A stretch of 64,000 bases of DNA, from NCBI GenBank assembly GCA_020854105.1, contig JADZGB010000002.1, positions 1,695 through 65,694 on the forward strand, read 5' to 3'. This document shows positions 10,327 through 63,566 of this stretch, piece after piece; position 1 is the first letter of the stretch; each line of letters begins with the position of its first letter. The notes below the pieces were generated by a model that was not told the origin of the DNA, did no database searches, and worked only from the letters and a program-made list of their open reading frames with translations. This stretch comes from Burkholderiales bacterium. GTDB taxonomy: Bacteria > Pseudomonadota > Gammaproteobacteria > Burkholderiales > SHXO01. The translations under genes were made by a program, and so were the position numbers.

Positions 10327-10357
10327 AAAAAAGAGCCCCCCGCTAAGGGGGGGGCTC
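10327..10357 (-). terminator. Rho-independent terminator after the MBL hydrolase gene
   Basis: On the minus strand: gagccccccc-ttagc-ggggggctc followed by tttttt. Confidence 0.75.
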
Positions 10358-10381
10358 CGGGTGAAGCGCGGTGCGTGCTGC

Positions 10382-12247: not shown

Positions 12248-12279
12248 GAAAATGAAAAGGCCCGCGCATGCGGGCCTTT
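12248..12279 (-). terminator. Rho-independent terminator of the desaturase gene (near-copy of the rpmG terminator hairpin)
   Basis: On the minus strand: aaaggcccgc-atgc-gcgggccttt followed by ttcattttc. Confidence 0.7.
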
Positions 12280-12303
12280 CCCTTTCCGGACCGGGCGTTG
12301 GGA

Positions 12304-13494
12304 TCAGGCTGGCATCTGGTACCCGCGCAGCGTGCGCGAGAACTCGCGCAGCGAAGCGATGCCCGACTGCTCGGCACGCTTGCACCAATCCTCCAACTGG
12401 CTCAGCAGCTGTTCCTTGGAGTCGTTCGAACGTGCCCACACAGCCGTCAGTTCCTGACGCATCGAATAGATGGTGCGCAGGACCGCGCTCTTGGTGAGCG
12501 CGTCCTCGAGTCCGGCGCGTTCGTCCGCGCGCAGAGTCTCGGGCTCGCGCTGCAGCCAGCGCTTGACGCGGCCGCCATCGACCTTGACGCCCTTGGACTT
12601 GAGCGCGTCCATCTCGTGCTTCCAGGTGTTCATCACCGTGCGCGCATAGCGCGCGGCGACGTCATAGCGGTGCGTCACCACGGCCTGCAGCGTGCGCAGG
12701 TCGCACGCGGCCTTGCCGTCCTCGATCCGCACCTTCGGCGCCAGGCGGCGCACCTCGGCCAGGCCCAGGGTCTCGAGGATGCGGATGTAAAGCCAGCCGA
12801 TATCGAATTCGTACCACTTGTTCGACAGCTTCGCGGACGACCCGTACGCGTGGTGGTTGTTGTGCAGCTCCTCGCCGCCGATCAGGATGCCCCAGGGCAG
12901 TATGTTGGTGCTGGCGTCCTCGGTCTGGAAATTGCGATAGCCCGAGTGGTGGCCCAGTCCATTGATCACGCCCGCGGCAAACAGTGGGATCCACGCCATC
13001 TGCACCGCCCAGACCGTCAGGCCGATGACACCGAACAGCACCAGGTCGATGACGAGCATGAGCGTGATGCCGAGTGCGCTGTACTTCGAATACAGCTTGC
13101 GTTCGATCCAGTCGTCGGGCGTGCCGTGACTGTACTTGGCAATCATCTCGGTGTCGGCGGTGCTCACTCGATACAGCTCCGCGCCCTCCAGCAGGACCTT
13201 CTTCAGCCCGAAGGCGACCGGGCTGTGCGGGTCATCGGCCGTCTCGCACTTCGCATGATGCTTGCGGTGCACGGCCGCCCACTCGCGCGTGATCATGCCC
13301 GTGGTCAGCCAGAGCCAGAACCGGAAGAAATGGCTGGCGATCGGGTGCAGTTCCAGGGCGCGATGCGCCTGGTGCCGGTGAAGGAAGATGGTCACGCCGG
13401 CAATCGTGACGTGCGTCAGTGCAAGGGTTACCAGCACGTAGCCCCACCAGGGCATCCGTACCAGTCCGTTGGCGGCCGCGAGAATAAAATCCAT
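12304..13494 (-). CDS. Membrane acyl-lipid/acyl-CoA fatty-acid desaturase (DesA-type delta-9)
   Basis: 396 aa; His boxes HRHQAH, HRKHH, HNNHH; N-terminal TM helices. Confidence 0.88.
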   Translation of the reverse strand: MDFILAAANGLVRMPWWGYVLVTLALTHVTIAGVTIFLHRHQAHRALELHPIASHFFRFWLWLTTGMITREWAAVHRKHHAKCETADDPHSPVAFGLKKVLLEGAELYRVSTADTEMIAKYSHGTPDDWIERKLYSKYSALGITLMLVIDLVLFGVIGLTVWAVQMAWIPLFAAGVINGLGHHSGYRNFQTEDASTNILPWGILIGGEELHNNHHAYGSSAKLSNKWYEFDIGWLYIRILETLGLAEVRRLAPKVRIEDGKAACDLRTLQAVVTHRYDVAARYARTVMNTWKHEMDALKSKGVKVDGGRVKRWLQREPETLRADERAGLEDALTKSAVLRTIYSMRQELTAVWARSNDSKEQLLSQLEDWCKRAEQSGIASLREFSRTLRGYQMPA

Positions 13495-48502: not shown

Positions 48503-50563
48503 ATGAACGCACCAGAACGCATCGCCCCCTCCGTCTGCCCGCACGACTGCACCAGCACCTGCGCCCTGGACGTCGAAATCCTGGATGCCCGCACCATCGG
48601 ACGGGTGCGCGGTTCCCAGCGCAATACGTACACCGCCGGGGTGGTCTGCGAGAAGGTGTCGCGCTACGCCGAGCGCGTGCACCACCCCGACCGCCTCGAG
48701 CATCCGCTGCTGCGGGTCGGACCGAAGGGTTCGAAGCAGTGGAAGCGCATCGGCTGGGACGAGGCGCTGGACCGTGTGGCAGAAGCCTTCGTGGGGAAGG
48801 CAGCACGGCACGGATCGGAGACGGTGTGGCCCTACTTCTACGCCGGCACGATGGGTCTGGTGCAGCGCGACGGGATCAACCGGCTGCGCCACGCGATGAA
48901 GTACTCGCGCTGGTACTCCACCATTTGCGTCGCGCTGTCCGACACCGGCTGGCTGGCGGGCGTGGGCAGCAAGCGCGGCGTGGACCTGCTGGAGGCGGCC
49001 GAGCATGCCGGCCTGATCGTGATCTGGGGCGGCAACCCGGTGAACACGCAGGTCAACGTGATGCAGCACTGCATGAGTGCGAAGAAGCGCGGCGCCACAC
49101 TGGTGGTGGTCGATCCCTACCGCACCGGCACGGCCGAGAAGGCCGACATCCACCTCGCGCTGCGCCCGGGCACCGACGGCGCGCTGGCCTGCGGCGTGAT
49201 GCACGTGCTGTTCGCCGAGGGCTATGCCGACTGGGATTACCTGCGCAAGCACACCGACCGCCCGGACGAGCTGGCCGCCCATCTGACGACGCGCACACCG
49301 CAGTGGGCCTCCGACATCACCGGACTGCCGGTGCAGACCATCGTCGACTTCGCGCGCCTGTATGGCAGCACCCGGGCGAGCTTCATCCGCTGCCACCACG
49401 GCTTCTCGCGCAGCCGCAACGGCGCGGCCAACATGCACGCGGTGTCCTGCCTTCCGGCGGTGACCGGTGCGTGGCAGCACCGCGGCGGCGGCGCGCTATA
49501 TGGCCAGGGCGCGTTGTATCCGCTGGACAAGACGCTGATAGAGGGCCTGGACGTGATGGACATGTCGCTGCGCGACCTCGATCAGTCGCGCCTGGGGCCG
49601 ATCCTCACCGGCGATCGCGAGGCGCTCAGAGATGGCCCGCCGGTCACCGCCATGCTGGTGCAGAACACCAATCCGGCGCTGGTCTGCCCCGAACTGCACA
49701 AGGTGCACGAAGGGCTGCTGCGCGAGGATCTGTTCGTGTGCGTGCACGAGCAGTTCATGACCGAGACCGCGGCCCTGGCCGACCTCGTTCTGCCCGCAAC
49801 GAGCTTCCTCGAGCATGACGACTTCTACACGGCCAGCGGCCACACCACCTTCCAGGTGGCGCGCAAGCTGATCGAGCCGCCCGGCGAGGCGCGCGAGAAC
49901 CATTACGTGATCTGCGAACTCGCCAGGCGCCTGGGCGCCCGGCACCCGGGCTTCGAGATGAGCACGTGGGAACTGATGGACCAGACCCTGCGCCGCTCCG
50001 GCATGTGGGACGCGCGGACCAACTACGAGCGCGGCGGCCAGAACTTCGCGCGGCCGTTCGAGCAGATGCACTTCCTGGACGGCTTCGACACGCCGGACCG
50101 CAAGTTCCACTTCTCGCCCGACTGGAAGCGCTTCGGCGGGCGCTGGGAGGAGATGCCCCGGCTGCCCGATCACCTGAACGTGATCGACAACGCCACGGCC
50201 GAGAAGCCCTACCGGATGGTGGCAGCGCCGTCGCGGACCTTCCTCAACTCCACCTTCACCGAGACGCCCGGTTCGCTCAAGCGCGAGAAGCGTCCGACCG
50301 TGCTGATGAACCCCGACGCCTGCGCAGCGCTGCAACTGGTCGAGGGCGATCGCGTCCGCCTGGGCAACGAGCGCGGCGAGGTCATCGTGCACGTGAGGCC
50401 GCAGGCAGGCCAGCAGCGCGACGTCGTGGTGGTGGAGGGCATCTGGCCCAGCAAGTATTTCGAGAACGGCGTCGGCATCAATTCGATCACCAGCGCACAG
50501 CCCGGCTGGCCCAATGGCGGCGCGGTGTTCCACGACACCGCGGTGTGGATCAGGCCGCTGTAG
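48503..50563 (+). CDS. Molybdopterin (bis-MGD) oxidoreductase family protein
   Basis: 686 aa. N-terminal Cys cluster CPHDCTSTC, MopB-type core, and a C-terminal barrel (VVMNPDACAALQLVEGDRVRLGNERGEV). Confidence 0.88.
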   Translation: MNAPERIAPSVCPHDCTSTCALDVEILDARTIGRVRGSQRNTYTAGVVCEKVSRYAERVHHPDRLEHPLLRVGPKGSKQWKRIGWDEALDRVAEAFVGKAARHGSETVWPYFYAGTMGLVQRDGINRLRHAMKYSRWYSTICVALSDTGWLAGVGSKRGVDLLEAAEHAGLIVIWGGNPVNTQVNVMQHCMSAKKRGATLVVVDPYRTGTAEKADIHLALRPGTDGALACGVMHVLFAEGYADWDYLRKHTDRPDELAAHLTTRTPQWASDITGLPVQTIVDFARLYGSTRASFIRCHHGFSRSRNGAANMHAVSCLPAVTGAWQHRGGGALYGQGALYPLDKTLIEGLDVMDMSLRDLDQSRLGPILTGDREALRDGPPVTAMLVQNTNPALVCPELHKVHEGLLREDLFVCVHEQFMTETAALADLVLPATSFLEHDDFYTASGHTTFQVARKLIEPPGEARENHYVICELARRLGARHPGFEMSTWELMDQTLRRSGMWDARTNYERGGQNFARPFEQMHFLDGFDTPDRKFHFSPDWKRFGGRWEEMPRLPDHLNVIDNATAEKPYRMVAAPSRTFLNSTFTETPGSLKREKRPTVLMNPDACAALQLVEGDRVRLGNERGEVIVHVRPQAGQQRDVVVVEGIWPSKYFENGVGINSITSAQPGWPNGGAVFHDTAVWIRPL

Positions 50564-50576
50564 CTCGCGTCGGATG

Positions 50577-50727
50577 CCGCCGCCCCGGCGAAACCTGCCC
50601 CGGGAGGATTTACAGTAAGCCGAGGGCCGGGACCCAGCCAGCCTCCGTCGCACCGGCGAGCCAGGCCCCAGCCCGGCCTCCGTCGCCCCGGCGAAAGCCG
50701 GGGTCCAGCGCAAAAAGAAAAGGCCGC
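50577..50727. repeat. REP-like composite element, array 4
   Basis: ccgccgccccggcgaaacc..., ggatttacagtaagccgagggccgggacccagc..., ccgtcgccccggcgaaagccggggtccagcgcaaaaagaaaaggcc. Confidence 0.8.
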
Positions 50728-50759
50728 TCACCACTTCACCTCCTCCACCTCCGCAGATC

Positions 50760-51074
50760 GTGCCTCCCTTCATCGAATCCTGGCTCGTCCGCTGGAGCCG
50801 CAACTACGCACTCCTGCGCCGCGCCGTGGACGCGGTCGGCCGCGAACTCGCGCGCAAGCCGTACGAGAGCCTGCTGCAGCCCGACGAGTTGTCCTTCACG
50901 CAGTTCGTCGAGGGTGAAGCCGTCGATTTCGAGGTAGAGGTCTATCGCATCGAACCCGACGGTACGATCTGGGCCCGGGTCGAGACGCGCAGCCGCCTGC
51001 CCACGCCCTTCATGCTGCGGCCCGCGCTGGTCTTCACCAAGCATCGGGACGGCATGGCCTACGTGCAGTTCTGA
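50760..51074 (+). CDS. Small hypothetical protein (104 aa) upstream of the TIR gene
   Basis: GTG-initiated ORF with coding-like composition; no motif recognised. Start uncertain. Confidence 0.4.
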   Translation: MPPFIESWLVRWSRNYALLRRAVDAVGRELARKPYESLLQPDELSFTQFVEGEAVDFEVEVYRIEPDGTIWARVETRSRLPTPFMLRPALVFTKHRDGMAYVQF

Positions 51075-51162
51075 TCGACGCAGCAGAGGCGCGCCTGGCG
51101 CGGCCTGCACGCTGTCATTGCGCGCGCAGCGGACGATCCTGCTTTGCGCCAGAATCCTGTCC

Positions 51163-52695
51163 ATGGCGGACATCTTCATCAGCTATGCCAGCGAGGATCG
51201 CGAACGCGCCAAGGTGTTCGCGCTAGCGCTGGAGGGCGAGGGATGGAGTGTCTGGTGGGATCGCCTGATTCCGTTCGGCAAGCCCTTCGATGCGGTCATC
51301 CAGGAGAACCTGACCGCAGCGAAGTGCGTGGTGGTGCTGTGGACCGAACACTCGGTGGCCTCCAAGTGGGTGCGCTCGGAAGCAGCTGCGGCCGAAGAGC
51401 GGTACACGCTGGTGCCGGTGATCCTGGACGAGGACGTGCAGTTGCCGCTGGCGTTCAAGCTGCTGCAGTGCGCCAAGCTGCACGACTGGGATCCGGACAG
51501 CGACAGCGCCGAGTACGACAAGATCCTGGCGCAGATCCGCGTACTGGTGAGCGGCGGCGGAACGACGCCCGAGCCCGCGGTGACGCCGGCGCGGCGCCTG
51601 ACGTTGCGCGGCAGCGGGGTCAGGCGCCGCTCGTGGCTGGTGCTGCTGTTCCTCGTGCTGCCGTCGCTGCTGGCGATCGGCGGTGCGCTCGTCCTGATGA
51701 ACTGGCGCGTTGCCACGCAGATCGAGCTGGCGCTGCAGGTCGACCGTATCGCCTTCACGCTGGCCGGCAGTGAGCGGGTGCCGCTGCTCGAGCGTGCCGT
51801 GAGCTTCGATGCTCTCTCGCTCGAACGGCTCGCGCGGGTGGAGTTGCGTGCAGCGCGTCTGCTGCCTGTCGATCCTGTCCCTGGCAGCGCCGAGCGGCGG
51901 GGCGTGACGCTGAAGCTGGAGGGCACGCCGCGCGATCGCATGGCCGTGGATTTCGAGAGCGAGACCGGCGGTGCGGTGACGGGTCGGCTGTCCGCGCTGT
52001 CGGTGGATCCGGGCACGCAGGTGGTGCTCGAGATGCGCCAGGGAGCCAGGCCGGCGCTCGTCATGCACCTGGACGCGCCGGCGATCGAGACCTCGGTGCT
52101 GCCCGCGCACCCGCTGCTGCTGACAGTGAGCAACGCCACAGTCGCGGAGCCGCCCGGCTTCGCGCAGTCGCCGCGCTGGCGCGCGCGACTCCAGATCAGC
52201 GAGGCCGACCCGATCATCGCCGTACGCGGCATCGCCTCCGCGTTCACGGCGATCATCGCGCCCTCGCGGGCGATGCGTGTTCTGCCCGACGGCGGGGCCC
52301 CCGTCTCCCAGGTGGAACTGCTCAGGCAGACCGGCAGCGGCGGTTATGCCAGTGCCCTGGTCGCGCCTGCCCGGCTCAGCTATCCCGGCTATGCGAAGGA
52401 CGCGGTCACGCTCGCGGCCGGCAGCCTGCTGAGCATCGACGCGCTGCACGATGCGACGCTCGCCGCGATCACGGTCGAGCCTGCACAGACGGTCTTGCCG
52501 GTGACGGTGCGCGCCCAGGCAGGCAGGATCCAGTCGCGGCTGGGCGGCGGCCCGCCGGTCGATCATCGCCTCAGCCTGTTCGACAGACTATGGTACGGAT
52601 CACGCACGGCGCTGCTGTTCAGCATCCTGGTGTGGGTGGCGAGCGTGACCGTGGGCGCGTACAAGCTCTACAGGGAGACCAGGGGGAGCACATGA
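51163..52695 (+). CDS. TIR-domain membrane protein: N-terminal TIR, TM helix, ~330-aa unknown extracytoplasmic domain, C-terminal TM helix
   Basis: MADIFISYASEDRERAKVFALALEGEGWSVWWDR...CVVVLWTEHSVASKWVRSEAAAA is a TIR_2-type sequence including the conserved Glu. TM1 is WLVLLFLVLPSLLAIGGALVLMNW; TM2 is ALLFSILVWVASVTVGAY. Confidence 0.85.
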   Translation: MADIFISYASEDRERAKVFALALEGEGWSVWWDRLIPFGKPFDAVIQENLTAAKCVVVLWTEHSVASKWVRSEAAAAEERYTLVPVILDEDVQLPLAFKLLQCAKLHDWDPDSDSAEYDKILAQIRVLVSGGGTTPEPAVTPARRLTLRGSGVRRRSWLVLLFLVLPSLLAIGGALVLMNWRVATQIELALQVDRIAFTLAGSERVPLLERAVSFDALSLERLARVELRAARLLPVDPVPGSAERRGVTLKLEGTPRDRMAVDFESETGGAVTGRLSALSVDPGTQVVLEMRQGARPALVMHLDAPAIETSVLPAHPLLLTVSNATVAEPPGFAQSPRWRARLQISEADPIIAVRGIASAFTAIIAPSRAMRVLPDGGAPVSQVELLRQTGSGGYASALVAPARLSYPGYAKDAVTLAAGSLLSIDALHDATLAAITVEPAQTVLPVTVRAQAGRIQSRLGGGPPVDHRLSLFDRLWYGSRTALLFSILVWVASVTVGAYKLYRETRGST

Positions 52696-53870
52696 CACAC
52701 ATCACGCGGATCCTGCCGCCGATCGCACTCGTCTTCGCCCTGCTGCTCGCGGCCGCGTCCGCGTCCGCCGCCAGTGCACCAACCGCCGCGGAAATGCGCA
52801 GCGGCGTGGCGAAGATCGCTTCCACCGCTGGCGGTATACGCCGCACGGGCACGGGCTTCGTGGTGCAGGCGGCCGGCGATGCCGTGTACATCGCCACCGC
52901 CTCGCACGTCGTGGAAGGCGACAAGGCGCCGCGGGTGGCCTTCCTGCCCGATCCCAACGCCGAATTCGAGGCGCAGGTGGTGAAGATAGAAAGCGGCGAT
53001 CCCAGGGGTCTTGCCCTGCTGGTCGTGCGCGGCAACGTGAAGCGGTTGCTGCGCGAGTTGCAGGTGCTGCAGTTCAGCACGTCGAACGATCTGGCAGCCG
53101 GCGACGCCGTCACCGCGATCGGATTTCCCCAGGGCGGGGGCGGATGGGCGGTGGTGCCGGCGACGGTTGCCTCGCGCGAGGGGCGCGAACTGGTGCTGAG
53201 CGGCAACATCGCCGAAGGCAGCTCCGGCGGACCGATCGTCAAGGACGGTGCCGTCGTGGGCCTGGTCACCGGAACCCAGGGCCAGTACGCGCGCGCCACG
53301 CCCGCCGTCATCGTGCGCTTCACCATGGAAGGCTGGGGCGTGAAGCTCCCCGCGGGCAGTGCGCCCGCCGCAGCGGCACCGGAGACGGCCACGCGCCGGC
53401 CCGCAGCCACGTCTGCACCGGCATCGTCCGGACCGGCACCGGCGACGTCCGGTTCGGCACCGGAAGCGTCCAGCCCGGCACCGGCATCGCCCGGTTCGGC
53501 ACCGGGGGCGCCCGGTCCGACACCGGCGCCGCCGCCGGCAGCTGCCAATGCCAGCCCGCAGGTATCCGGTTATTACACCGGCCAGTTGCACGGCATGACC
53601 GTGCTGCAGCAGCGCTACACGTGCGGATTCGCCGCCAGTTTCACCCAGGCCGGGCAGGAGGTCACGGGGCAGTACGCCAACACCTGCGGCGACCAGGGTG
53701 TGTTCGGCGGACAGCTGATCCAGAACGGATTGGTGGGGCAGACGCTGTCGCACGTCAACGGCGGCTACTGCGGTATGGCGATCGAGGTCACCGGCAACGG
53801 TGCGTCGCTCCAGGGCCAATACGAGTGCGCGAACGGCGAGAAGGGCTCTTTCACGATGGTGAGGAACTGA
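52692..53870 (+). CDS. Secreted trypsin-fold (S1/S1C-like) serine protease with Pro/Ala/Ser linker and Cys-containing C-terminal domain
   Basis: The ATG overlaps the TIR gene stop (ATGA). Signal peptide ILPPIALVFALLLAAASASAASA; triad contexts ATASHVV, GLALLVV, GSSGGPIV. The linker APAAAAPETATRRPAATSAPASSGPAPATSGSAPEASSPAPASPGSAPGAPGPTPAPPPAAA is followed by a domain with 4 Cys. Confidence 0.85.
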   Translation: MTHITRILPPIALVFALLLAAASASAASAPTAAEMRSGVAKIASTAGGIRRTGTGFVVQAAGDAVYIATASHVVEGDKAPRVAFLPDPNAEFEAQVVKIESGDPRGLALLVVRGNVKRLLRELQVLQFSTSNDLAAGDAVTAIGFPQGGGGWAVVPATVASREGRELVLSGNIAEGSSGGPIVKDGAVVGLVTGTQGQYARATPAVIVRFTMEGWGVKLPAGSAPAAAAPETATRRPAATSAPASSGPAPATSGSAPEASSPAPASPGSAPGAPGPTPAPPPAAANASPQVSGYYTGQLHGMTVLQQRYTCGFAASFTQAGQEVTGQYANTCGDQGVFGGQLIQNGLVGQTLSHVNGGYCGMAIEVTGNGASLQGQYECANGEKGSFTMVRN

Positions 53871-53920
53871 GACTCGCGGAAGTCCCTCGCTCCGCGATCA
53901 CTCCGTCAACTCTGAATCAT

Positions 53921-54097
53921 CCTGTCACGCCGGAAGCCTGCCCGGAACGCTTCAATCCGGGGCCGGAGCCCGGCACCACCATCCGTCGCCCCGGCGAAAG
54001 CCGGGGCCCAGCGAAACAGAAAAGGCTCTGGATCCCTGCATTCGCCGGGATGACGGGGCGATGGTTGCTGGATCCCGCCCTTCGCCGGGATGACGGC
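53921..54097. repeat. REP-like composite element, array 5 (complete C-B-A-A arrangement)
   Basis: Unit C: cttcaatccggggccggagcc. Unit B: ccgtcgccccggcgaaagccggggcccagcgaaacagaaaaggc. Unit A twice: ctggatccctgcattcgccgggatgacgg and ctggatcccgcccttcgccgggatgacgg. Confidence 0.85.
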
Positions 54098-54287
54098 AAG
54101 AAGCTCCGCCGCGAGGATGCCGGCCGGGCCTGCGTCCCGCGCAGAAACAATTCTGTTTCGAAGCAGACATCGTGCGGATACCGCACCCGCGTACGGTGTG
54201 GGTGTCACGAGCAGATCCTGTGCGCTGAGCCGTGCAGCAGAACGCTGGATGCAGCTACCCATTCCAACCGTCATCACGGAGCGCGCC

Positions 54288-55382
54288 ATGTCCGCTCAAC
54301 GTCGCCAGCTTCCTCACCAGTCCGACCGCCTGTTCATGACCGACGGCGGGCTGGAGACCACCCTGATCTTCCAGGACGGCATCGACCTTCCGGCATTCGC
54401 CGCCTTCGATCTGATGAAGTCCGAGGAGGGCATGCAGCGGCTGCGCGAATATTACCGGCGCTATGTCGTGATGGCGCACGCACTCGGTCTCGGCATCGTG
54501 CTGGAGGCGCCGACCTGGCGCGCCAATGCTGACTGGGCAACCCAGCTCGGGTACGACGAGGTCTCGCTGGCGCGCGTCAATCGCCGGTCGATCGGGATGC
54601 TTGCCACCCTGCGCCAGGCGTACGAGACCGCTGGTACTCCGATCGTGCTCAGCGGCTGCCTGGGGCCGCGTGGAGACGGATACCGCGTGTACGGGCGCAT
54701 GACCGCCGCGCAGGCGCGCGACTACCACGCCGTGCAGATCGATACCTTCGCAGGTACCGAGGCAGACATGATGGCGGCCTTCACCATGAACTACGTCGAC
54801 GAAGCGCTTGGCATCGTGCTGGCCGCGCGCGGCGCGCAGATGCCGGTGGCGATCTCGTTCACGGTGGAGACGGACGGACGTCTGCCGTCCGGCGATACGC
54901 TGCAGGAGGCGATCGAGCGCACCGATCGGGAGACCGACGGCTATCCCGCCTACTACATGATCAACTGCGCGCACCCGACACACTTCCACCACGTACTGTC
55001 GGACGAGCGTCATCCCGGCGACAGCCAGGATTCAGCAACCACCTCCCGTCATCCCGGCGACAGCCGGGATCCAGAACTCCCCGGCTGGCGCATGCGCATC
55101 GCCGGCATTCGTGCCAACGCGTCCACGCGCAGCCACGCAGAACTGGACGAGAGCACGGAGCTGGACGATGGCGATCCCGTCGAGCTCGGCCGTCAATACG
55201 TGGCGCTGCGCGGCCTCCTGCCGCGGCTGACGGTGGTGGGCGGCTGCTGCGGCACGGATCACCGGCACGTCGAGTCGATCTGCCGGGCGATGAGCGACGT
55301 TGCCGCGCCGGTTTCGATTCCGATCGCCTCCTCGTCCGGGGCGGACGCTTTGCGCGGTGGCACCCGGCTGCCGGCCGGATGA
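54288..55382 (+). CDS. Homocysteine S-methyltransferase family protein carrying an in-frame REP-derived insertion
   Basis: LFMTDGGLETTLIF N-terminus; zinc-ligand contexts MINCAHP and VVGGCCGTDHRHV. ATG at 54288; the ORF start at 54090 lies inside REP array 5 and is rejected. Confidence 0.85.
   Translation: MSAQRRQLPHQSDRLFMTDGGLETTLIFQDGIDLPAFAAFDLMKSEEGMQRLREYYRRYVVMAHALGLGIVLEAPTWRANADWATQLGYDEVSLARVNRRSIGMLATLRQAYETAGTPIVLSGCLGPRGDGYRVYGRMTAAQARDYHAVQIDTFAGTEADMMAAFTMNYVDEALGIVLAARGAQMPVAISFTVETDGRLPSGDTLQEAIERTDRETDGYPAYYMINCAHPTHFHHVLSDERHPGDSQDSATTSRHPGDSRDPELPGWRMRIAGIRANASTRSHAELDESTELDDGDPVELGRQYVALRGLLPRLTVVGGCCGTDHRHVESICRAMSDVAAPVSIPIASSSGADALRGGTRLPAG
55018..55084 (-). repeat. 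REP unit-A doublet located inside the methyltransferase CDS (opposite orientation to array 5)
   Basis: The reverse complement reads ctggatcccggctgtcgccgggatgacgggaggtggttgctgaatcctggctgtcgccgggatgacg, almost colinear with 54037-54097. Confidence 0.8.
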
Positions 55383-55510: not shown

Positions 55511-56167
55511 ATGGACCATTCGAATGCGTTCGACCGCCGCAACTTCCTCGGCTTCACCGCCGCCGCTGCCACTCTCGGTCTCGCCGCTGCCGCACCGGCG
55601 GCACGCGCGGCCACCGGTCCCTCCACTGCCTTCACTCAGTGGCTCGACAGCATTCCAGGCACGCACAAGGTAACCCTCGACGTGCGCGAGCCGGGCGGGG
55701 GCATGTGCAACGTCTGGGCATGGGTCTACCTGTTCACCGCGCCCAAGGCCTACGGCATGAACGAAGGCGACATGGGCGTGGCGATGGTGCTGCGCCACAA
55801 CGCCATCCCCTTCGCGCTGGGTGACGAGGCGTGGAGCAAGTACAGGCTCGGCGAGGTGTTCAAGATCGACGACCACGAGACGGGCAAGGCAGCGGTGCGC
55901 CATCCCTACTACGTGGACATGCCCGCCGAATTCTTTCCGGACATGGCGCTGCAGACGCTGATCGAGCGCGGCGTCAAGCCGGTGGCCTGCGACATGGCGA
56001 TCTTCTACTACAGCGGTCTGGTGGCGAAGGCGATGAGCCTGAAGCACGAGGACGTGATGGCGGACTGGAACGCCAATGTGCTGCCCGGCATCGCCCACGC
56101 GCCCTCGGGCCTGGTGGCGGTTCAGGGTCTGGGCGAGCGCGGCTGTTCCTACATCTACGCAGGCTAG
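55511..56167 (+). CDS. Tat-signal periplasmic protein of unknown function (DsrE-like fold suspected)
   Basis: Twin-arginine motif DRRNFLGF plus AxA site; 218 aa; alpha/beta pattern with conserved Cys context (KPVACDMAIFY). Confidence 0.65.
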   Translation: MDHSNAFDRRNFLGFTAAAATLGLAAAAPAARAATGPSTAFTQWLDSIPGTHKVTLDVREPGGGMCNVWAWVYLFTAPKAYGMNEGDMGVAMVLRHNAIPFALGDEAWSKYRLGEVFKIDDHETGKAAVRHPYYVDMPAEFFPDMALQTLIERGVKPVACDMAIFYYSGLVAKAMSLKHEDVMADWNANVLPGIAHAPSGLVAVQGLGERGCSYIYAG

Positions 56168-56237
56168 CGCCTGCACAACCGGACAGCGGGCGGATGCCAG
56201 CGCATTCGCCCGCTGCTGCACGGAGAACACCTGCGCC

Positions 56238-57071
56238 ATGAAGAAACTGCTCTTCGCGGCGGCGGGCGTGCTTGCCCTGTCGCTGCCGGCCCAGGACGCG
56301 GCCGCACGTCCCACGATCGAGGAACTGCAGAAGCGGGCGGTCCTCGACGACTACGAAGCGAACGTGCTGTTCGGCTACAACATCGTGATGGACAGCAACC
56401 GCTACGCGCCGCGCTACGCCGGGAACGCATTGCGCTGCAGCAGCTGCCATCTCGACGGCGGCACCAGGCCGGACGGCTTTCCGCTGTTCGTCGCCGGTGT
56501 CTATCCGAAGTGGCGCGCGAAGAACGGCGTGCGCAATTCGCTGGAGATGCGCATCCGTGACTGCTTCCTGTACAGCCTCAGCGGAGTGATGCCGCCGGAG
56601 GAGGCGCCGGAGGTGCTCGCGGTGTCGGCCTACATCAGCTATCTCTCGTACGGCAAGTCGATCGGCACCCCGCCGCAGGGATGGGGCGTGCCCACGCTGC
56701 CCGAGACCGGCGCCGATCCCGATCCCGCGCGCGGACAGGCGGTGTTCCGGCGCGCGTGCACGCTGTGCCACGGTGCCGATGGCGCGGGCACCGCGGTCGC
56801 GCCGCCGCTGTGGGGCTTTCAGTCGTTCAACGCGGGCTCGGGCATGAACGTCGTGCCGCGCCTCGCCGGTTTCATCTGGGCCAACATGCCGATGGGCGCG
56901 GAGCGCTCGCTCACGCACCAGGAGGCGCTCGACGTGGCGGCCTTCCTGCACATCCAGCACCGGCCGTTCGATCCGCGCGAAGGCCGGCTGAGGAAGCTCG
57001 CCGAGGAGATCTATCATGGCCTGTCCCGGCTGTTCGGAGCGCGCGCGCCGGCCGCGCCCACCGGTCGATGA
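56238..57071 (+). CDS. Dihaem c-type cytochrome, TsdA-like (thiosulfate dehydrogenase family)
   Basis: Signal peptide; haem motifs CSSCH and CTLCH; a Cys (RIRDCF) about 40 residues after the first haem His. ATG at 56238. Confidence 0.75.
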   Translation: MKKLLFAAAGVLALSLPAQDAAARPTIEELQKRAVLDDYEANVLFGYNIVMDSNRYAPRYAGNALRCSSCHLDGGTRPDGFPLFVAGVYPKWRAKNGVRNSLEMRIRDCFLYSLSGVMPPEEAPEVLAVSAYISYLSYGKSIGTPPQGWGVPTLPETGADPDPARGQAVFRRACTLCHGADGAGTAVAPPLWGFQSFNAGSGMNVVPRLAGFIWANMPMGAERSLTHQEALDVAAFLHIQHRPFDPREGRLRKLAEEIYHGLSRLFGARAPAAPTGR

Positions 57072-58567
57072 GCCTGCTGCGCGAGGCCGTCCCCGACCTG
57101 CGCTGGCGGCGTTCGGTAGACGTGCGGCGCGAGGTCGCGGCAGGGCTGGTCGGGGCGCTGCTGGTCATTCCCCAGGCGATCACGTTTGCCTACGTCGCCG
57201 GGGTCGCGCCGGAGTACGGCCTGTACTGCGCGGTGTTCGTCGGCTTCCTCGCGAGCCTGCTGGGCAATTCGCCGATGGTGGGCGGACCGAACACCGCGGT
57301 CTCCATCCTCATCGGGCTAACCGTGCTGCCGTTCGCCGGACGCGGCTCGCCCCTGTACACCGAGCTGGTCCTGGCGCTGAGCCTGATGGTCGGCTTCATC
57401 CAGCTGCTGATGTGGCTCGGCCGCGCCGCCGCGCTGTTCCGCTATTTCAGTCCTGCGGCGATCATCGGCATCAAGGCCGGGGTGGGCGTGTGGCTGATCG
57501 CCTCCGCGCTGGAAGGCGCGACCGGCATGGGGCCGATGACGGTGAAGTTCCTGTACGAGAAGTTCTACATCGTGCTGGCCGGCTGGCAGGAACTGGTTAA
57601 TCCGTACGCGACACTGGTGAGCGGGGTGACGGTGGCGGCCGGCTTGCTGCTGCGCCGTCGCTGGCGCCGCAGCTACGTGGTACTCGCGGTGCTGATCGGC
57701 AGCATCGTGGGCGGGCTCGTCTACGGCTGGCTCGGCCCGGTCGATTCGGACCTCGAACTGCTCGGCCACGTCACCCTGGATGCGCTGCCGTTCCGGATCC
57801 CGACGCTCGGTCCGCCGCACTGGCTGTTTCTCGAGCTCGCGATCGCGCCGGCAATCGCCATCGCCATCCTCGGCTTGGCGCAGTCGCTCGTCATCGCGCG
57901 CGATCTGAAGTCCACGGTCGCTCCCCATCTCGATCTGCACAAGGAGGTGTTCGCGCAGGCGATGGCGAATGCGCTCGGTCCGTTCTTCTCCAGCTTCGCC
58001 GGATCGGGCAGCTTCAACCGCACCGCGATCGCGCTCGAGATGGGCGCGCGCACGCCGCTGTCCGGCATGGTGGCCGCGCTCGCGGTGGTGCTCATCGCCT
58101 GGTTGCTCGGGCCGGTGCTCACCTACCTGCCGATGCCGGTGGTGGCCGGCGTGATGGTGCTGGTGGGCATCGGCATGATCCAGCCGCGTGAGCTCCGCCC
58201 GATGCTGAACCGGATCGACGGCCCGGTGCTGCTGGTGACCCTGTTTGCCGTGATCTTCCTGGGCCTGGAGAGCGGCATCCTGGTCGCAGTAACGGCGTCG
58301 GTGATCTTCTTCGTGGCGAGCGCCTCGCAGGTCAGGCTGGCGATCTCGCACCAGGGCGAGGCCGAACACATCCGGGTGACGGGCAATCTGTTCTACGCCT
58401 CGATCGATCGGCTGGCGAAGCACCTGCACGCGAATCCCGCGGCCGTGACGTCGCTGGATCTGTCGCGCGTGCCGTTCCGCGACGCGACCGCGATGCAACT
58501 GATCGAGCGCATCCAGCGCGAGCGCGTCCGCTGTGGCGGGAAGCTGGAGGTGGTGGAAGAGGGGTGA
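57068..58567 (+). CDS. SulP-family anion (sulfate/bicarbonate-type) transporter with C-terminal STAS domain
   Basis: GALLVIPQAITFAYVAGVAPEYGLY N-terminal signature, polytopic core, STAS-like tail. ATGA overlap with the cytochrome gene. Confidence 0.88.
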   Translation: MSLLREAVPDLRWRRSVDVRREVAAGLVGALLVIPQAITFAYVAGVAPEYGLYCAVFVGFLASLLGNSPMVGGPNTAVSILIGLTVLPFAGRGSPLYTELVLALSLMVGFIQLLMWLGRAAALFRYFSPAAIIGIKAGVGVWLIASALEGATGMGPMTVKFLYEKFYIVLAGWQELVNPYATLVSGVTVAAGLLLRRRWRRSYVVLAVLIGSIVGGLVYGWLGPVDSDLELLGHVTLDALPFRIPTLGPPHWLFLELAIAPAIAIAILGLAQSLVIARDLKSTVAPHLDLHKEVFAQAMANALGPFFSSFAGSGSFNRTAIALEMGARTPLSGMVAALAVVLIAWLLGPVLTYLPMPVVAGVMVLVGIGMIQPRELRPMLNRIDGPVLLVTLFAVIFLGLESGILVAVTASVIFFVASASQVRLAISHQGEAEHIRVTGNLFYASIDRLAKHLHANPAAVTSLDLSRVPFRDATAMQLIERIQRERVRCGGKLEVVEEG

Positions 58568-58598: not shown

Positions 58599-58698
58599 AG
58601 CTGGATCCCGGCGTTCGCCGGGATGACGGAAGTGAGCAGGAATGACAGATAACCGCCGCCCCGGCGAACGCCGGGGCCCAGCGAAAACGAAAAGGCCG
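58599..58698. repeat. REP-like composite element, array 7
   Basis: gctggatcccggcgttcgccgggatgacgg ... ccgccgccccggcgaacgccggggcccagcgaaaacgaaaaggcc. Confidence 0.85.
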
Positions 58699-58715: not shown

Positions 58716-59468
58716 TCACCCCCCCACCTTCGGCTGGTGATAGAACCTCACCACCTGCACGATCGGATCGTTCGTACTGCTCACGAACCCGCGCAGCACC
58801 AGCCGGTAGCGGCCCGCCGGTACGGCCGAGGCTCCAGTCCATTTCACCGCGAACGGCCTGCCGCCCGCCTGGCGGCCGAAGTCCTGCGAGAACACCGCCC
58901 GATCACCGGACTCCGGAAAGATCGACGCCTTCAGCACCGATTCCTCGCGCACGCGGAAATAGAACACGTACGAGTCCGCCGAACGGGGCGGATCGGACTG
59001 ATACAGCACCACCGGCGCCACCGCTTCGTCGGCGCTGGGATTGGGCTTGTCCAGTCGCGCCACCACGCCCAGATCGTGCGGCTGCAGGCCACGCAGCTGC
59101 TTGAGGACTTCGCCGGTTGGCCACTCGAAGGTGTTGCCGAAACCGGCGCGCCACGGATCGTGCGGTTCGACCCGGTCCAGCCAGTAGTAATGCTTGTAGT
59201 CGAGTTCGCGCACGACCAGATTGACGCTTCGCTGGCGATCGAGGTAGAAGCGCGCGTGCAGTCGCTCCCCGAGGTCAGGCGCGTCCTCGTGATAGTCGAT
59301 CTGGGCAGCGAGCAGTTCCACGTCGAAGCCGGACACGGGCTTGGGCTTGATGCCCTCGAATCGGTTGTCGCGCTTCTGGTACTGCAGGGAATCCTGCGCG
59401 TGCAGCGCCGGGCTGAGCGCGAGTGCAGCCAGCACGATGGCAACGACGTACGGGCCGAGTCTGGACAT
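58716..59468 (-). CDS. Secreted hypothetical protein (250 aa)
   Basis: The ATG at 59468 is preceded by GAGGAGG. Signal peptide MSRLGPYVVAIVLAALALSPALHA; no motif recognised. Confidence 0.65.
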   Translation of the reverse strand: MSRLGPYVVAIVLAALALSPALHAQDSLQYQKRDNRFEGIKPKPVSGFDVELLAAQIDYHEDAPDLGERLHARFYLDRQRSVNLVVRELDYKHYYWLDRVEPHDPWRAGFGNTFEWPTGEVLKQLRGLQPHDLGVVARLDKPNPSADEAVAPVVLYQSDPPRSADSYVFYFRVREESVLKASIFPESGDRAVFSQDFGRQAGGRPFAVKWTGASAVPAGRYRLVLRGFVSSTNDPIVQVVRFYHQPKVGG

Positions 59469-59590: not shown

Positions 59591-59700
59591 CCGTCGCCCC
59601 GGCGAACGCCGGGGCCCAGCGCAACAGAGAAGGCTCTGGATCCAGGCTTCCGCCGGGATGACGGAATCGTAGGCTTCTGTCTGAATGACGGCTTCCGCCG
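59591..59700. repeat. REP-like composite element, array 8
   Basis: ccgtcgccccggcgaacgccggggcccagcgcaacagagaaggc, ctggatccaggcttccgccgggatgacgg. Confidence 0.85.
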
Positions 59701-62050: not shown

Positions 62051-62701
62051 CTACTGCCTCACGAACTTCATCTTCATCGCCTCGCCCTCGGGTGCGCCTT
62101 CCAGCACATTGCCCTTGCGCGTGAGCACCAGCGGTGCACCGCCGTCGGGATCGGACACGGTCACCTTGTCGCCGACCACCTTGTACGTGGCGTCGCGCGC
62201 ATCCGATGGTGTCTGGGAGCCGGCCACGAGAATGCGCACCTTGCTTGCAGGCCGGAAGTCGAGCACCACATTGACCTTCGCGTCGCCTGCCTTGTACTTG
62301 CCTGACAGCGCGGCGCCCTTGGAACTTCCGAAGGCGGCCGTCGCACCTGGCTTAGTCCCGGCCGGCGTACCCGGCTTCGCCGCGGCCGCTGAACCGCCGC
62401 CCTTGCAGTAGGTGCCCAGCGGCCCGCCGCCGACCACGCAGCCCTTGTCGTCCAGGGTGAAGACGTTGGTCTCGTTTCCCACCGTGATAAGCACTTCCTT
62501 GCCATCGACCTCGTACGTGCCGACCTTGGTCATGCCCATGAAGGTCACGTACACCTTTCCGCCGGAGCGGAAGCTCAGCTTCTCGAAGAGGCTGGTGCCG
62601 ACCTGCTGGTAATCGCCATCCAGCCGGGCGGCGAGGGCCGGCAGCGCGACACAGACGCAGCCGAGCAGAGCGAGGAAGCGGATGGCGATGCAGGCCGGCA
62701 T
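62051..62701 (-). CDS. Secreted hypothetical protein with two copies of a ~70-aa beta-rich module
   Basis: Signal/lipobox-like N-terminus (FLALLGCVCVALPALA). The modules start LDGDYQQ.. and LSGKYKAG.. and are separated by a Gly/Ala/Pro linker. Confidence 0.7.
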   Translation of the reverse strand: MPACIAIRFLALLGCVCVALPALAARLDGDYQQVGTSLFEKLSFRSGGKVYVTFMGMTKVGTYEVDGKEVLITVGNETNVFTLDDKGCVVGGGPLGTYCKGGGSAAAAKPGTPAGTKPGATAAFGSSKGAALSGKYKAGDAKVNVVLDFRPASKVRILVAGSQTPSDARDATYKVVGDKVTVSDPDGGAPLVLTRKGNVLEGAPEGEAMKMKFVRQ

Positions 62702-62721: not shown

Positions 62722-63453
62722 CTACTTCTTCTTCATCCGCGCGACGAACGAATCCGGCGGTCCGCGCAGCGCGCCGTCGTCATCGACCTTGAACTGCAGG
62801 TCCTCGTCGTCGCACGTGAGGACGACGAGCATCGCCGTTCCCTTGTGCGTGCACTCCATTGTCAGGCCCTGCATCGACATGAAGGCGACGCCCTTGGGCT
62901 TGAACTCGATCTGCACGCCGCCGTCTGCATTCGCGTAGGTGCCCGCGAGGGGAGATGGACCCGATGCAGCAGTCCGGGCCGGCGCCGCGGCAGCGGGTTC
63001 GGCGTCCGCGGCGGCCGGCACGGCGCCGTCCTTCGCCAGCTTCAACTCCCTGCACTCGGCCCAGCCGACCGTGCCCGGCGCCTCGAGCTGGCACCAGGCG
63101 CCGTTCACCTTGACCACCTTGGCGCGCAATATCGTGCCTTGCGTGCGCAGGTCTACCACCTCACCCGCCTTGAACGCTGCGGCCGGTTTCCCGCCGCGCT
63201 GCAGCAGACGCAGCTTGCTCGCGTGCACCGGCACCTCGCCGGCACCGGGGACCGACAGCACCACGTAGCCGGACTCGTCCGGTCCGACCGTGACCTCGCC
63301 CACCGTGGGCCCCATGCCGCTCACGTACTCTGCCAGATCGCCGAGCGCGAGCGGTCCCTTGGACGGCTTGGGCTCCGCCGCATGCGCGGATACGGAAAAC
63401 AGGAGCAACACGAGACACTGCACTACGAGCGGGACAACACGGGGACAGCGCAT
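62722..63453 (-). CDS. Secreted hypothetical protein: SH3/Tudor-like N-domain + one copy of the same ~70-aa module
   Basis: The ATG at 63453 is preceded by GAGGAGA. Signal peptide VVPLVVQCLVLLLFSVSAHA. The C-terminal module (LAGTYANADGGVQIEFKPKG...) is related to the modules of the neighbouring gene. Confidence 0.7.
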   Translation of the reverse strand: MRCPRVVPLVVQCLVLLLFSVSAHAAEPKPSKGPLALGDLAEYVSGMGPTVGEVTVGPDESGYVVLSVPGAGEVPVHASKLRLLQRGGKPAAAFKAGEVVDLRTQGTILRAKVVKVNGAWCQLEAPGTVGWAECRELKLAKDGAVPAAADAEPAAAAPARTAASGPSPLAGTYANADGGVQIEFKPKGVAFMSMQGLTMECTHKGTAMLVVLTCDDEDLQFKVDDDGALRGPPDSFVARMKKK

Positions 63454-63566
63454 GGAGGTCTCCTCGGGTTGGTCTTCTTGGAAGGATGGCGCCTCGGCTG
63501 GGGGGACGCAGCCGGCAGCATGATGCGCCCGAATCGATGCGCGCGCCATTCAGTGGAAACACTGGT

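What the first reader, a model, noticed from the sequence alone, without database searches (positions are those of the whole stretch)
50760..53870. TIR-domain two-TM membrane protein translationally coupled to a secreted trypsin-fold protease: candidate trans-envelope signalling/defence pair
Seen in sequence, gene 1: the ORF at 51163-52695 opens with a textbook bacterial TIR block (DIFISYASEDRERA...VVVLWTEHSVASKWVRSE). It includes the Glu that is catalytic in NAD-cleaving TIRs. Then come one TM helix, about 330 aa with no motif I recognise, and a second TM helix at the extreme C-terminus. Seen in sequence, gene 2: the stop of gene 1 overlaps (ATGA, 52692-52695) the start of a 392-aa protein. 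That protein has a Sec signal peptide, a His/Asp/Ser trypsin-fold triad (ATASHVV, GLALLVV, GSSGGPIV), a ~70-aa Pro/Ala/Ser linker and a C-terminal domain with 4 Cys. The predicted topology puts the TIR in the cytoplasm and both the unknown domain and the protease in the periplasm. Established knowledge: bacterial TIR domains act as NADases or signal generators in Thoeris, some CBASS/Pycsar-like and retron systems, and their partners there are cytoplasmic. Inference: a TIR wired to a periplasmic sensor domain plus a dedicated periplasmic protease suggests regulated proteolysis (DegS/RseA-like logic). An envelope event such as phage adsorption or cell-wall damage could be converted into cytoplasmic NAD+ cleavage or signalling. 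I do not recognise this architecture as a named system. The pair is bracketed by REP arrays, and a 104-aa ORF of unknown function lies 89 nt upstream.
Basis: partly seen in the sequence, partly recalled or inferred. Interest (0 to 1): 0.8.

Follow-up and report, generated by a model that had tools for sequence, protein, structure and literature searches.

The report
Three-gene envelope sensor with TIR output
The flagged gene pair is real and belongs to an undescribed, widely conserved three-gene envelope module (a secreted protein, a membrane receptor and secreted proteases with interchangeable binding domains) whose receptor carries a cytoplasmic TIR here, which suggests bacteria can link events outside the cell membrane to a cell-death enzyme inside.

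Summary
Gene T (51163-52695) encodes an N-terminal TIR_2 domain, a TM helix, a ~300-aa all-beta periplasmic domain and a second TM helix. It overlaps by ATGA the secreted Trypsin_2 protease P (52692-53870). The error: His72 and Ser178 are present, but the canonical Asp position is a Gly.

The pair is two thirds of a conserved triad. The third gene, U, encodes a secreted ~250-aa double beta-sandwich protein in no family library.
- U lies directly upstream of T in 60 of 62 metagenome loci.
- P follows T in 31 of 35.
- In this window U is displaced 4.8 kb (58716-59468, minus strand) by four metabolic genes.

Two further patterns:
- T's membrane/periplasmic module occurs with different cytoplasmic heads. 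Of 141 clusters, 82 have none, 35 have TIR and 9 have CHAT; a SEFIR/TIR form also exists.
- P occurs in 1-4 copies per locus. Its C-terminal domains include FGE-sulfatase, PEGA, Ig-like, Sel1, ankyrin and PD40.

No named defence system matches (PADLOC, NCBIfam, Pfam, literature).

My best reading is periplasmic sensor-proteases acting on U and/or T, clustering T and activating the TIR NADase. The function is untested. Most homologues lack any effector head, and the locus shows no defence-island features.

The parts
51163..52695 (+). Gene T: TIR / TM / periplasmic beta domain / TM receptor-like protein (510 aa, = P0001)
   Evidence: ORF. About 44 full-length homologues at 30-72% identity. AF2 mean pLDDT 91.
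51172..51525 (+). Cytoplasmic TIR_2 domain (residues 4-121). The putative catalytic Glu73 is the codon at 51379-51381.
   Evidence: Pfam E=2.8e-22. Foldseek hits to SPARTA, SARM1, AbTir and BtpA TIR domains. E73 aligns with the BtpA/AbTir Glu and is kept in 73 of 75 relatives.
51631..51702 (+). TM helix 1 (about residues 157-180), preceded by an RRR cluster and a disordered linker (133-152)
   Evidence: Hydropathy. AF2 helix 154-180 and low pLDDT for 133-152.
51703..52602 (+). Periplasmic all-beta domain (residues 181-480), a new family with no library match
   Evidence: No Pfam, NCBIfam or PADLOC hit. 141 homologue clusters. AF2 strands 185-459. Only a weak titin-Ig profile hit in the PDB.
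52606..52668 (+). TM helix 2 (about residues 482-502), preceded by the conserved D467-x-R469-L470 juxtamembrane motif
   Evidence: Hydropathy. AF2 helix 472-508. Conservation analysis.
52692..53870 (+). Gene P: secreted trypsin-fold serine protease (392 aa). Its start overlaps the T stop codon (ATGA).
   Evidence: Homologue downstream of T in 31 of 35 metagenome loci. Also present after the full-length genome-MAG homologues wherever the contig extends past T.
52692..52769 (+). Sec-type signal peptide of P (residues 1-26, ...ASA|AS)
   Evidence: Hydropathy and sequence.
52848..53264 (+). Trypsin_2 protease domain. His72 and Ser178 are present; Gly106 sits at the canonical Asp position and Asp103 lies nearby.
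   Evidence: Pfam. Alignment to DegP/DegQ. Family alignment. Residue positions.
53562..53867 (+). C-terminal ~100-aa four-Cys beta domain of P (Cys 311, 332, 360, 379), the position of the variable binding domain
   Evidence: No family hit. The same domain occurs on P paralogues in L039, L152, L155, L162 and L167. Other P proteins carry FGE-sulfatase, PEGA, Ig-like, SH3, Sel1, PD40/Lcl_C or ankyrin domains instead.
58716..59468 (-). Gene U: secreted ~250-aa protein (= P0100) with two beta-sandwich domains. It is the third conserved component, displaced 4.8 kb from P in this clade.
   Evidence: tblastn 40-55% identity to the gene directly upstream of T in other loci. More than 190 homologues, all unnamed. 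AF2 pLDDT 94. AGGAGG lies 7 nt before the ATG at 59468. 60 of 62 U loci have T next.
50760..51074 (+). 104-aa ORF (g0), a clade-specific neighbour that is not part of the conserved system
   Evidence: Found only in the closest relatives L001, L002 and L081-L083. No family hit. Unrelated to U.
50680..50703 (.). REP-like element upstream of g0/T/P
53983..54096 (.). REP-like array downstream of P
58606..58676 (.). REP-like elements between the SulP gene and the 3' end of U
59591..59664 (.). REP-like elements upstream of U

Best explanation
The window holds a split copy of a conserved three-component envelope module, U-T-P.

The components (shown):
- T is an inner-membrane hairpin protein. Both termini are cytoplasmic, a ~300-aa all-beta domain is periplasmic, and here an N-terminal TIR domain faces the cytoplasm.
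- P is a secreted serine protease whose C-terminal domain is swapped among many ligand-binding folds. Many genomes carry arrays of 2-4 P paralogues.
- U is a highly conserved secreted protein with two beta-sandwich domains.

Proposed mechanism (inferred):
- P proteins act as periplasmic sensor-proteases. When the variable domain binds a foreign or damage-associated envelope ligand, P cleaves U and/or T's periplasmic domain.
- This changes the oligomeric state of T.
- Clustering of T brings the cytoplasmic TIR domains together and switches on NAD+ cleavage. In sister systems the head is SEFIR or a CHAT caspase-like protease instead.
- The outcome is growth arrest or death of the affected cell.

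Shown: gene linkage, topology, domain identities, head swapping and variability of P's C-terminus. Inferred: who cleaves whom, the trigger, and that the output is NAD+ depletion.
For: - Linkage: in genome MAGs from Burkholderiales, Nitrospirota and Ectothiorhodospiraceae, the full-length T homologues have P downstream wherever the contig extends far enough, and all but the two closest relatives (L001, L002) have U upstream.
- In a U-anchored metagenome sample, 60 of 62 loci have T next and 31 of 35 have P after T.
- T and P are often translationally coupled, here by ATGA.
- Topology.
- TIR competence: E73 aligns with the BtpA/AbTir Glu, is kept in 73 of 75 relatives, and the TIR is the most conserved part of T.
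- Head swapping on one periplasmic module: TIR 35, CHAT 9, none 82 clusters, plus SEFIR/TIR_2. The triad is retained in the CHAT (L084, L089), SEFIR (L090) and headless (L085) versions. From general knowledge, TIR, SEFIR and caspase-like domains are all activated by induced proximity.
- P's His and Ser are invariant. Its C-terminal domains are hypervariable, and up to 4 paralogues per locus each carry a different domain.
- Relative conservation against L003: U about 55%, P protease domain about 52%, T periplasmic domain about 32%.
- Giant DUF7379-LCAT-CHAT-TPR-S proteins adjoin the triad in Nitrospira-type and CHAT-type loci.
Against: - There is no experimental datum for any member.
- 58% of homologue clusters have no cytoplasmic head.
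- A headless T (L085) is the nearest relative of TIR-bearing T proteins in the same syntenic context. The core therefore works, or at least persists, without TIR.
- In this genome the locus sits among metabolic genes in synteny conserved across relatives.
- U has no match on plasmids or phages.
- No PADLOC model matches beyond generic domains.
- P lacks the canonical Asp, so its activity is unproven.
- No protease-substrate relation could be tested because no complex prediction was available.
- In this clade U is separated from T-P by four genes.
Confidence: 0.45

Rival explanations
1. Non-immune envelope module. U, T and P form a periplasmic proteolytic, maintenance or surface-remodelling complex, for example processing of envelope or extracellular proteins bound by P's variable domains. 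T acts as a membrane anchor or regulator. The TIR, CHAT and SEFIR heads are late, dispensable add-ons that tune physiology rather than execute defence.
For: - Most T homologues have no cytoplasmic head (82 of 141 clusters).
- TIR presence flips within one syntenic clade.
- The locus is in conserved chromosomal synteny with metabolic genes here.
- RoxA-like cytochrome c genes are constant neighbours in another clade.
- U is absent from plasmids and phages.
- Periplasmic HtrA-type proteases also carry substrate-binding C-terminal domains (general knowledge; weak HtrA similarity).
Against: - The heads that were added are precisely the death or immune effector set, TIR, SEFIR and CHAT.
- The TIR keeps its catalytic Glu and is under strong constraint.
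- Arrays of P paralogues with FGE-sulfatase, ankyrin, Sel1, PEGA and PD40 domains look like a recognition repertoire rather than one housekeeping protease.
- CHAT/TPR giant proteins are nearby.
Confidence: 0.3
2. A TIR membrane protein and its dedicated protease work as a DegS/RseA-like pair, with the 104-aa upstream ORF as a possible third gene and no role for U.
For: - T-P adjacency and ATGA coupling.
- In this clade U is 4.8 kb away on the other strand, while g0-T-P stays together.
Against: - U is immediately upstream of T in 60 of 62 loci, and in every T variant examined by gene neighbourhood: headless, CHAT and SEFIR/TIR_2.
- Even in this clade U stays within 5 kb across relatives.
- g0 is restricted to the closest relatives.
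- P has no PDZ domain and scores far below the HtrA/DegS family cut-offs.
Confidence: 0.1
3. The TIR is a signal generator (Thoeris ThsB-like) that makes a nucleotide second messenger for an effector encoded elsewhere. It is not a self-sufficient NAD+-depleting effector.
For: - Weak partial hits to ThsB-type models (PF08937 E=7.7e-4; PADLOC ThsB models; Thoeris type III ThcB4, 29.6 bits).
Against: - All these hits are far below family cut-offs and cover only generic TIR motifs.
- No ThsA-like, SLOG, Macro or SAVED gene is conserved near any locus examined.
- Replacement of TIR by a CHAT protease argues for a directly acting effector head.
Confidence: 0.1

Closest known systems
TIR-effector abortive-infection systems (SPARTA TIR-APAZ, TIR-SAVED and TIR-STING in CBASS, SARM1-type NADases)
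   Same: A TIR domain with the conserved catalytic Glu. Structural matches to the SPARTA, SARM1 and AbTir TIR domains. Activation by induced oligomerisation is the expected logic (general knowledge).
   Different: Those sensors are cytoplasmic (guide RNA/DNA, cyclic nucleotides). Here the TIR is tethered to a membrane hairpin with a periplasmic domain and partnered with secreted proteins. No Argonaute, CD-NTase or SAVED is present.
Envelope-sensing anti-phage systems (Zorya ZorAB, Kiwa KwaA, SNIPE)
   Same: In concept, an inner-membrane component with a periplasmic part reports an envelope event to a cytoplasmic effector (PMC13434031).
   Different: There is no sequence relation (no PADLOC hits). 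Those systems use motor or stator or small TM sensors and nucleases. None uses secreted proteases, a secreted accessory protein or a TIR/CHAT head.
Regulated intramembrane or periplasmic proteolysis (DegS-RseA-RseP; SpoIVB-SpoIVFA)
   Same: A periplasmic trypsin-fold serine protease is encoded next to a membrane protein with a periplasmic domain. Weak similarity to HtrA and SpoIVB.
   Different: P has no PDZ domain and scores 38.6 bits against a 416 cut-off for the Do family. The canonical Asp is missing. No site-2 protease or sigma factor is conserved in the loci. The output is TIR or CHAT rather than transcription.
Predicted conflict systems of multicellular bacteria (Kaur, Burroughs, Iyer, Aravind; eLife 2020, 2021)
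   Same: A shared vocabulary: trypsin-like and caspase-like peptidases, TIR, FGE-sulfatase (FGS) and repeat domains as variable sensor/effector modules. CHAT-TPR giant proteins are nearby.
   Different: Those systems centre on cytoplasmic NTPases (MoxR-vWA, STAND, GTPases) or the EACC1-caspase pair. This triad has no NTPase, is extracytoplasmic, and rests on two protein families (U and T's periplasmic domain) that I did not find in the passages of those papers I searched.
Drosophila Toll pathway (recognition proteases, Spaetzle-processing enzyme, Spaetzle, Toll)
   Same: A formal analogy from general knowledge. Extracellular trypsin-fold proteases with recognition modules, a small secreted protein, and a single-pass-like receptor with a cytoplasmic TIR.
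   Different: No homology outside the TIR and the protease fold. The TIR is N-terminal and probably enzymatic. U is a double beta-sandwich, not a cystine knot. Cleavage of U is hypothetical.

Membership tests
Pfam TIR_2 (PF13676) domain family | Score above the gathering threshold over the full domain | tested here: met
   79.9 bits against a cut-off of 28, covering profile positions 1-121 of 122.
NAD+-cleaving TIR enzymes | Catalytic Glu in the W-x-x-x-E motif position | tested here: met
   E73 aligns with the Glu of BtpA and AbTir. Conserved in 73 of 75 relatives.
NAD+-cleaving TIR enzymes | Demonstrated NADase activity | not testable with these tools
   Needs a biochemical assay.
Thoeris | A ThsB-type TIR scoring as the family, and an adjacent ThsA (SIR2 or Macro/SLOG) effector | tested here: not met
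   ThcB4 scores 29.6 bits against a cut-off of 220. PF08937 scores 20.3, below its cut-off of 21.2. No ThsA-like gene in the window or in related loci.
CBASS / Pycsar TIR effectors | A CD-NTase or pyrimidine cyclase gene plus a SAVED or cNMP-binding sensor on the effector | tested here: not met
   The PADLOC SAVED_TIR hit covers only TIR residues 2-75. No cyclase in the neighbourhoods.
Retron-TIR | A reverse transcriptase fused or adjacent | tested here: not met
   NF042941 scores 29 bits against a cut-off of 600, over the TIR part only. No RT in the loci.
Pfam Trypsin_2 (PF13365) | Score above the gathering threshold | tested here: met
   63.6 bits against a cut-off of 27.6.
HtrA / DegP / DegS family | Protease domain with the canonical His-Asp-Ser triad, plus one or more C-terminal PDZ domains | tested here: not met
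   TIGR02037 scores 38.6 bits against a cut-off of 416. No PDZ domain. Gly at the canonical Asp position.
NTP-dependent ternary conflict systems (MoxR-vWA, STAND) | A MoxR AAA+ or STAND NTPase core with a vWA component | tested here: not met
   None found among conserved neighbours. System descriptions read.
Zorya / Kiwa / other named PADLOC systems | Homology to the system's core proteins | tested here: not met
   PADLOC gives only generic TIR and protease domain hits for T and P. It gives none for U or for a headless T.
U-T-P triad (defined here) | A secreted U homologue, a T homologue (TM / beta domain / TM) and one or more secreted Trypsin_2 P homologues in one neighbourhood | tested here: met
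   The window holds one copy of each: T at 51163-52695, P at 52692-53870, U at 58716-59468. Family statistics.

The most novel reading that the evidence does not exclude
A bacterial counterpart of Toll-pathway logic. Arrays of secreted recognition proteases (P, with interchangeable lectin, repeat or Ig domains) detect foreign or damaged envelope material in the periplasm and cleave the conserved secreted protein U. Processed U then binds and clusters the membrane receptor T, which fires a cytoplasmic TIR (or SEFIR, or CHAT caspase-like) death domain. This would be an extracytoplasmic proteolytic cascade feeding a TIR receptor in prokaryotes.
Probability: 0.2. Interest if true: 0.95.

Novelty: new variant of a known kind. 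Interest (0 to 1): 0.75.

Why it matters
Characterised bacterial TIR systems sense events in the cytoplasm. The known envelope-sensing defences (Zorya, Kiwa, SNIPE) use neither proteases nor TIR.

A conserved module that couples secreted sensor-proteases to a membrane receptor with swappable TIR, SEFIR or CHAT heads would be a new way for bacteria to read the periplasm and trigger cell-death enzymes. It would also be the closest prokaryotic parallel so far to receptor-type TIR signalling in animals.

Independently of function, the work defines two new protein families (U and T's periplasmic domain) with hundreds of members. It also gives a clear, testable three-gene cassette.

The headless majority offers a natural experiment on what the core does without an effector.

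Tried and rejected
- Fold search of the whole T model against the PDB returned only TIR matches among the 50 listed.
- A profile of headless T proteins against PDB sequences gave only a weak titin Ig hit. A profile of U gave nothing.
- Foldseek for U against the PDB and against viral structures gave only generic Ig/FnIII-like matches with TM-scores of about 0.2-0.28.
- The word-indexed homologue search with P's four-Cys domain found only itself. Copies of that domain were instead found by eye in P paralogues of fetched loci.
- g0 as a remnant of U was rejected (hhalign probability 0.2%).
- The promoter and terminator scan of 50400-54400 found nothing.
The N-terminal heads were classified locally with HMMs instead.
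- Mobile-element association: U is not on any PLSDB plasmid or INPHARED phage. Only one locus (L090) had an integrase or transposase nearby.
- Literature searches for a described TIR, periplasmic-protease or Toll-like bacterial system found none.

Full report
**What is at the coordinates**

The window is about 68% G+C. Its proteins are identical to those of a Burkholderiales MAG (P0001 and P0100).

Gene T (51163-52695, +) encodes 510 aa.
- Residues 4-121 are a Pfam TIR_2 domain (E=2.8e-22).
- Hydropathy gives two TM segments, at about 157-180 and about 482-502.
- An AlphaFold2 model built on 43 homologues (mean pLDDT 91.2) shows five parts in order: a TIR fold, a disordered linker (133-152), a long helix (154-180), an all-beta region (185-459) and a terminal helix (472-508).
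- An RRR cluster precedes TM1 and a basic tail follows TM2. Both termini are therefore cytoplasmic and the beta domain is periplasmic.

The T stop codon overlaps the start of gene P (52692-53870, +) in ATGA, with a purine-rich run just upstream. P encodes 392 aa:
- a Sec-type signal peptide;
- a Trypsin_2 domain (E=4.4e-17, residues 53-191);
- a Pro/Ala/Ser-rich linker;
- a ~100-aa C-terminal domain with four Cys.

REP-like elements flank the block and are strongly over-represented in the window: 9 hits against 0.05 expected and 14 against 0.10 expected.

'GLALLVV' contains no Asp. In alignments with DegP/DegQ the canonical Asp position is Gly106. It is Gly in 33 of 34 aligned family sequences, the window's included, and an Asp in 'GGDP' lies three residues upstream in most. 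His72 and Ser178 are invariant.

**TIR competence**

Glu73 (WVRSE) aligns with the Glu of the Brucella BtpA motif 'WPARE' and the Acinetobacter AbTir motif 'WTEYE'. From general knowledge this is the catalytic Glu of TIR NADases. Glu73 is kept in 73 of 75 TIR-bearing family members. The TIR is the most conserved part of T. Foldseek matches are to the TIR domains of SPARTA, SARM1, AbTir, BtpA and TLR/MyD88.

**The pair is a triad**

A scan of one genome per species returned 15 loci with full-length T homologues at 25-67% identity, from Burkholderiales, Nitrospirota and Ectothiorhodospiraceae MAGs. Fourteen of them have a P homologue directly downstream. In the fifteenth (L004) the contig ends about 110 nt after T.

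Clustering of the neighbouring ORFs revealed a third conserved gene immediately upstream of T, encoding a secreted ~250-aa protein that I call U. The window has a U homologue with 55% identity to the L003 copy. It lies at 58716-59468 on the minus strand, 4.8 kb beyond P, and AGGAGG sits 7 nt before its ATG.

Four unrelated genes lie between P and U:
- a homocysteine S-methyltransferase;
- a 218-aa protein;
- a SoxA/TsdA-like cytochrome c;
- a SulP transporter.

The whole order is kept in relatives at 70-80% identity (L081, L083): Mo-oxidoreductase, g0, T, P, the four-gene insert, then U on the opposite strand. In this clade the cassette was split, and REP elements sit at each junction. The 104-aa ORF g0 occurs only in this clade and is unrelated to U.

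**How solid is the linkage**

I anchored on U, which has more than 190 homologues, all unnamed. I fetched 80 metagenome loci and annotated them with local HMMs.
- 60 of 62 loci with room have T directly downstream of U.
- 31 of 35 loci with room have at least one P after T.
- The exceptions are the split-clade relative L091, a rearranged but complete locus (L168), and four loci with no P within 1.1-4.9 kb.

**Variable heads on a constant periplasmic module**

I searched T's periplasmic domain alone against 1.84 billion cluster representatives and found 141 clusters. Classified by what precedes the first TM:
- 82 have only a short tail;
- 35 have TIR;
- 9 have a CHAT caspase-like domain (Pfam);
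- 5 have something else, one of which is SEFIR/TIR_2.

Gene neighbourhoods show U and a Trypsin_2 gene alongside every variant type examined:
- CHAT: L084 and L089;
- headless: L085 (the short contig L086 shows U next to T but ends before any P gene);
- SEFIR: L090, with two P genes.

The headless T of L085 is closest (56-58% identity) to the TIR-bearing T proteins of L003-L007, in the same synteny. There the cytochrome is 80% identical, U about 70% and P about 69%. The TIR has therefore been gained or lost recently.

**Variable tails on the protease**

P's protease domain is conserved, but its C-terminus is replaced again and again. The domains seen are:
- the four-Cys beta domain found here, which recurs in P paralogues of L039, L152, L155, L162 and L167;
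- FGE-sulfatase (C-type-lectin fold);
- PEGA;
- Ig-like TMEM131/ASH;
- SH3_3;
- Sel1;
- Lcl_C plus a PD40 propeller;
- ankyrin repeats.

Loci carry 1-4 P paralogues, each with a different tail.

The nearest TIR relatives outside the family are N-terminal TIR plus TM proteins. Their extracytoplasmic parts are FGE-sulfatase, PEGA, PDZ, TonB_C, Amidase_2 or TPR. These are a one-protein version of the same idea.

**What U and T's periplasmic domain are**

Neither has a Pfam, NCBIfam or PADLOC family.

U models confidently (pLDDT 94) as two beta-sandwich domains. It has only generic Ig/FnIII-like structural neighbours and no PDB sequence relative. Its best-conserved stretch is the N-terminal motif YQxRxNRxEGIKPKPVSG, right after the signal peptide.

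A profile of T's periplasmic domain gives only a weak titin Ig hit. The conserved positions of T's membrane/periplasmic module are mostly juxtamembrane: T185, R195, F198, G393, Y407-P408, and D467-x-R469-L470 just before TM2.

Among the core parts U and the protease domain evolve slowly and T's periplasmic domain evolves fast. Against L003 the identities are 55%, 52% and 32%.

**Interpretation**

Three patterns point to a conflict-type signalling device:
- The heads added to T are exactly the death or immune effector set (TIR, SEFIR, CHAT). From general knowledge these share activation by induced proximity.
- P's tails form a diversified recognition repertoire.
- Giant DUF7379-LCAT-CHAT-TPR-S proteins adjoin the triad in several clades.

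The most economical mechanism has four steps. P binds a periplasmic ligand. P then cleaves U and/or T. T clusters as a result. The cytoplasmic head then fires, which here means NAD+ cleavage by the TIR. I put this at about 0.45.

The counter-evidence is substantial:
- Most family members have no head.
- The locus here is syntenic among metabolic genes.
- U is absent from plasmids and phages.
- P lacks the canonical Asp.
- Nothing has been tested experimentally.

A non-immune envelope function with accessory heads therefore remains a serious rival (about 0.3).

**Comparison with known systems**

The locus fails the defining features of several families:
- Thoeris, CBASS/Pycsar and retron-TIR: it has no ThsA, cyclase/SAVED or RT, and scores lie far below the cut-offs.
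- HtrA/DegS: it has no PDZ and scores 38.6 bits against a cut-off of 416.
- The NTPase-centred conflict systems of Kaur et al..

It shares only the concept with Zorya, Kiwa and SNIPE. I found no paper describing it.

It works most like a receptor-type TIR pathway. The formal resemblance to recognition proteases, Spaetzle and Toll is an analogy from general knowledge, not homology.

**Verdict**

- The finding is an uncharacterised, widespread three-component envelope module with exchangeable TIR, SEFIR or CHAT heads.
- It is a new variant within TIR- or caspase-effector conflict systems, with a genuinely new extracytoplasmic sensing layer if the model holds.

Noticed in passing
window 55007-55069 (inside the S-methyltransferase gene 54276-55382, +): A pair of REP-like elements sits in frame inside the homocysteine S-methyltransferase coding sequence. 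It coincides with a 21-aa insertion (…HPGDSQDSATTSRHPGDSRDPELP…) that is absent from the 68%-identical orthologue in L083.
   Followed up: partly
window 34960-62001, scattered: Two REP-like motifs (CCCGGCGAAAGCCGGGG and TTCGCCGGGATGACGG) recur 9 and 14 times against 0.05-0.10 expected. They sit mostly in intergenic gaps, including every junction of the split U / insert / T-P arrangement. This suggests REP-associated rearrangement.
   Followed up: partly
proteins P0045-P0099, not in the window: A broad class of N-terminal TIR_2 proteins closest to this TIR. Their remaining domains are FGE-sulfatase, PEGA, PDZ, TonB_C, Amidase_2 (PGRP-like), FHA, TPR or TolB-like. The architectures resemble receptors (extracytoplasmic binding domain plus cytoplasmic TIR). 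TM segments were not checked.
   Followed up: no
L057:1006-6573; L089:350-5767; also L014, L065, L067, L073, L077: A ~1800-aa protein (DUF7379, LCAT-like alpha/beta hydrolase, CHAT, TPR-S) lies just upstream of the triad in Nitrospira-type (TIR) loci and in one CHAT-type locus. It may be an accessory fourth component.
   Followed up: partly
L003-L007 and L085, upstream of U: Two tandem ~500-540-aa RoxA-like di-haem cytochrome c genes are constant upstream neighbours of the triad in one Burkholderiales-like clade. Both TIR-bearing and headless T proteins occur in this context.
   Followed up: partly
L011:7238-7928 and 7986-10736: U is hit in two reading frames, and T and the first P appear as one long ORF. 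This is either a frameshifted (decaying) copy of the triad or an assembly error.
   Followed up: no
L090:6380-6586 and 12254-12895: The SEFIR/TIR_2 version of the triad is flanked by an rve_3 transposase fragment and a phage-type integrase. It is the only locus seen with mobile-element neighbours.
   Followed up: no
window 55511-58567: The four-gene insert between P and U includes a 218-aa protein with a twin-arginine-like signal (RRNFLGF…), a SoxA/TsdA-like dihaem cytochrome c and a SulP transporter. It looks like a sulfur-oxyanion module unrelated to the triad.
   Followed up: no
window 62051-62701 (-) and 62722-63549 (-): Two adjacent secreted proteins with only sub-threshold Pfam hits (DUF5640, SH3_4). 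Function unknown.
   Followed up: no
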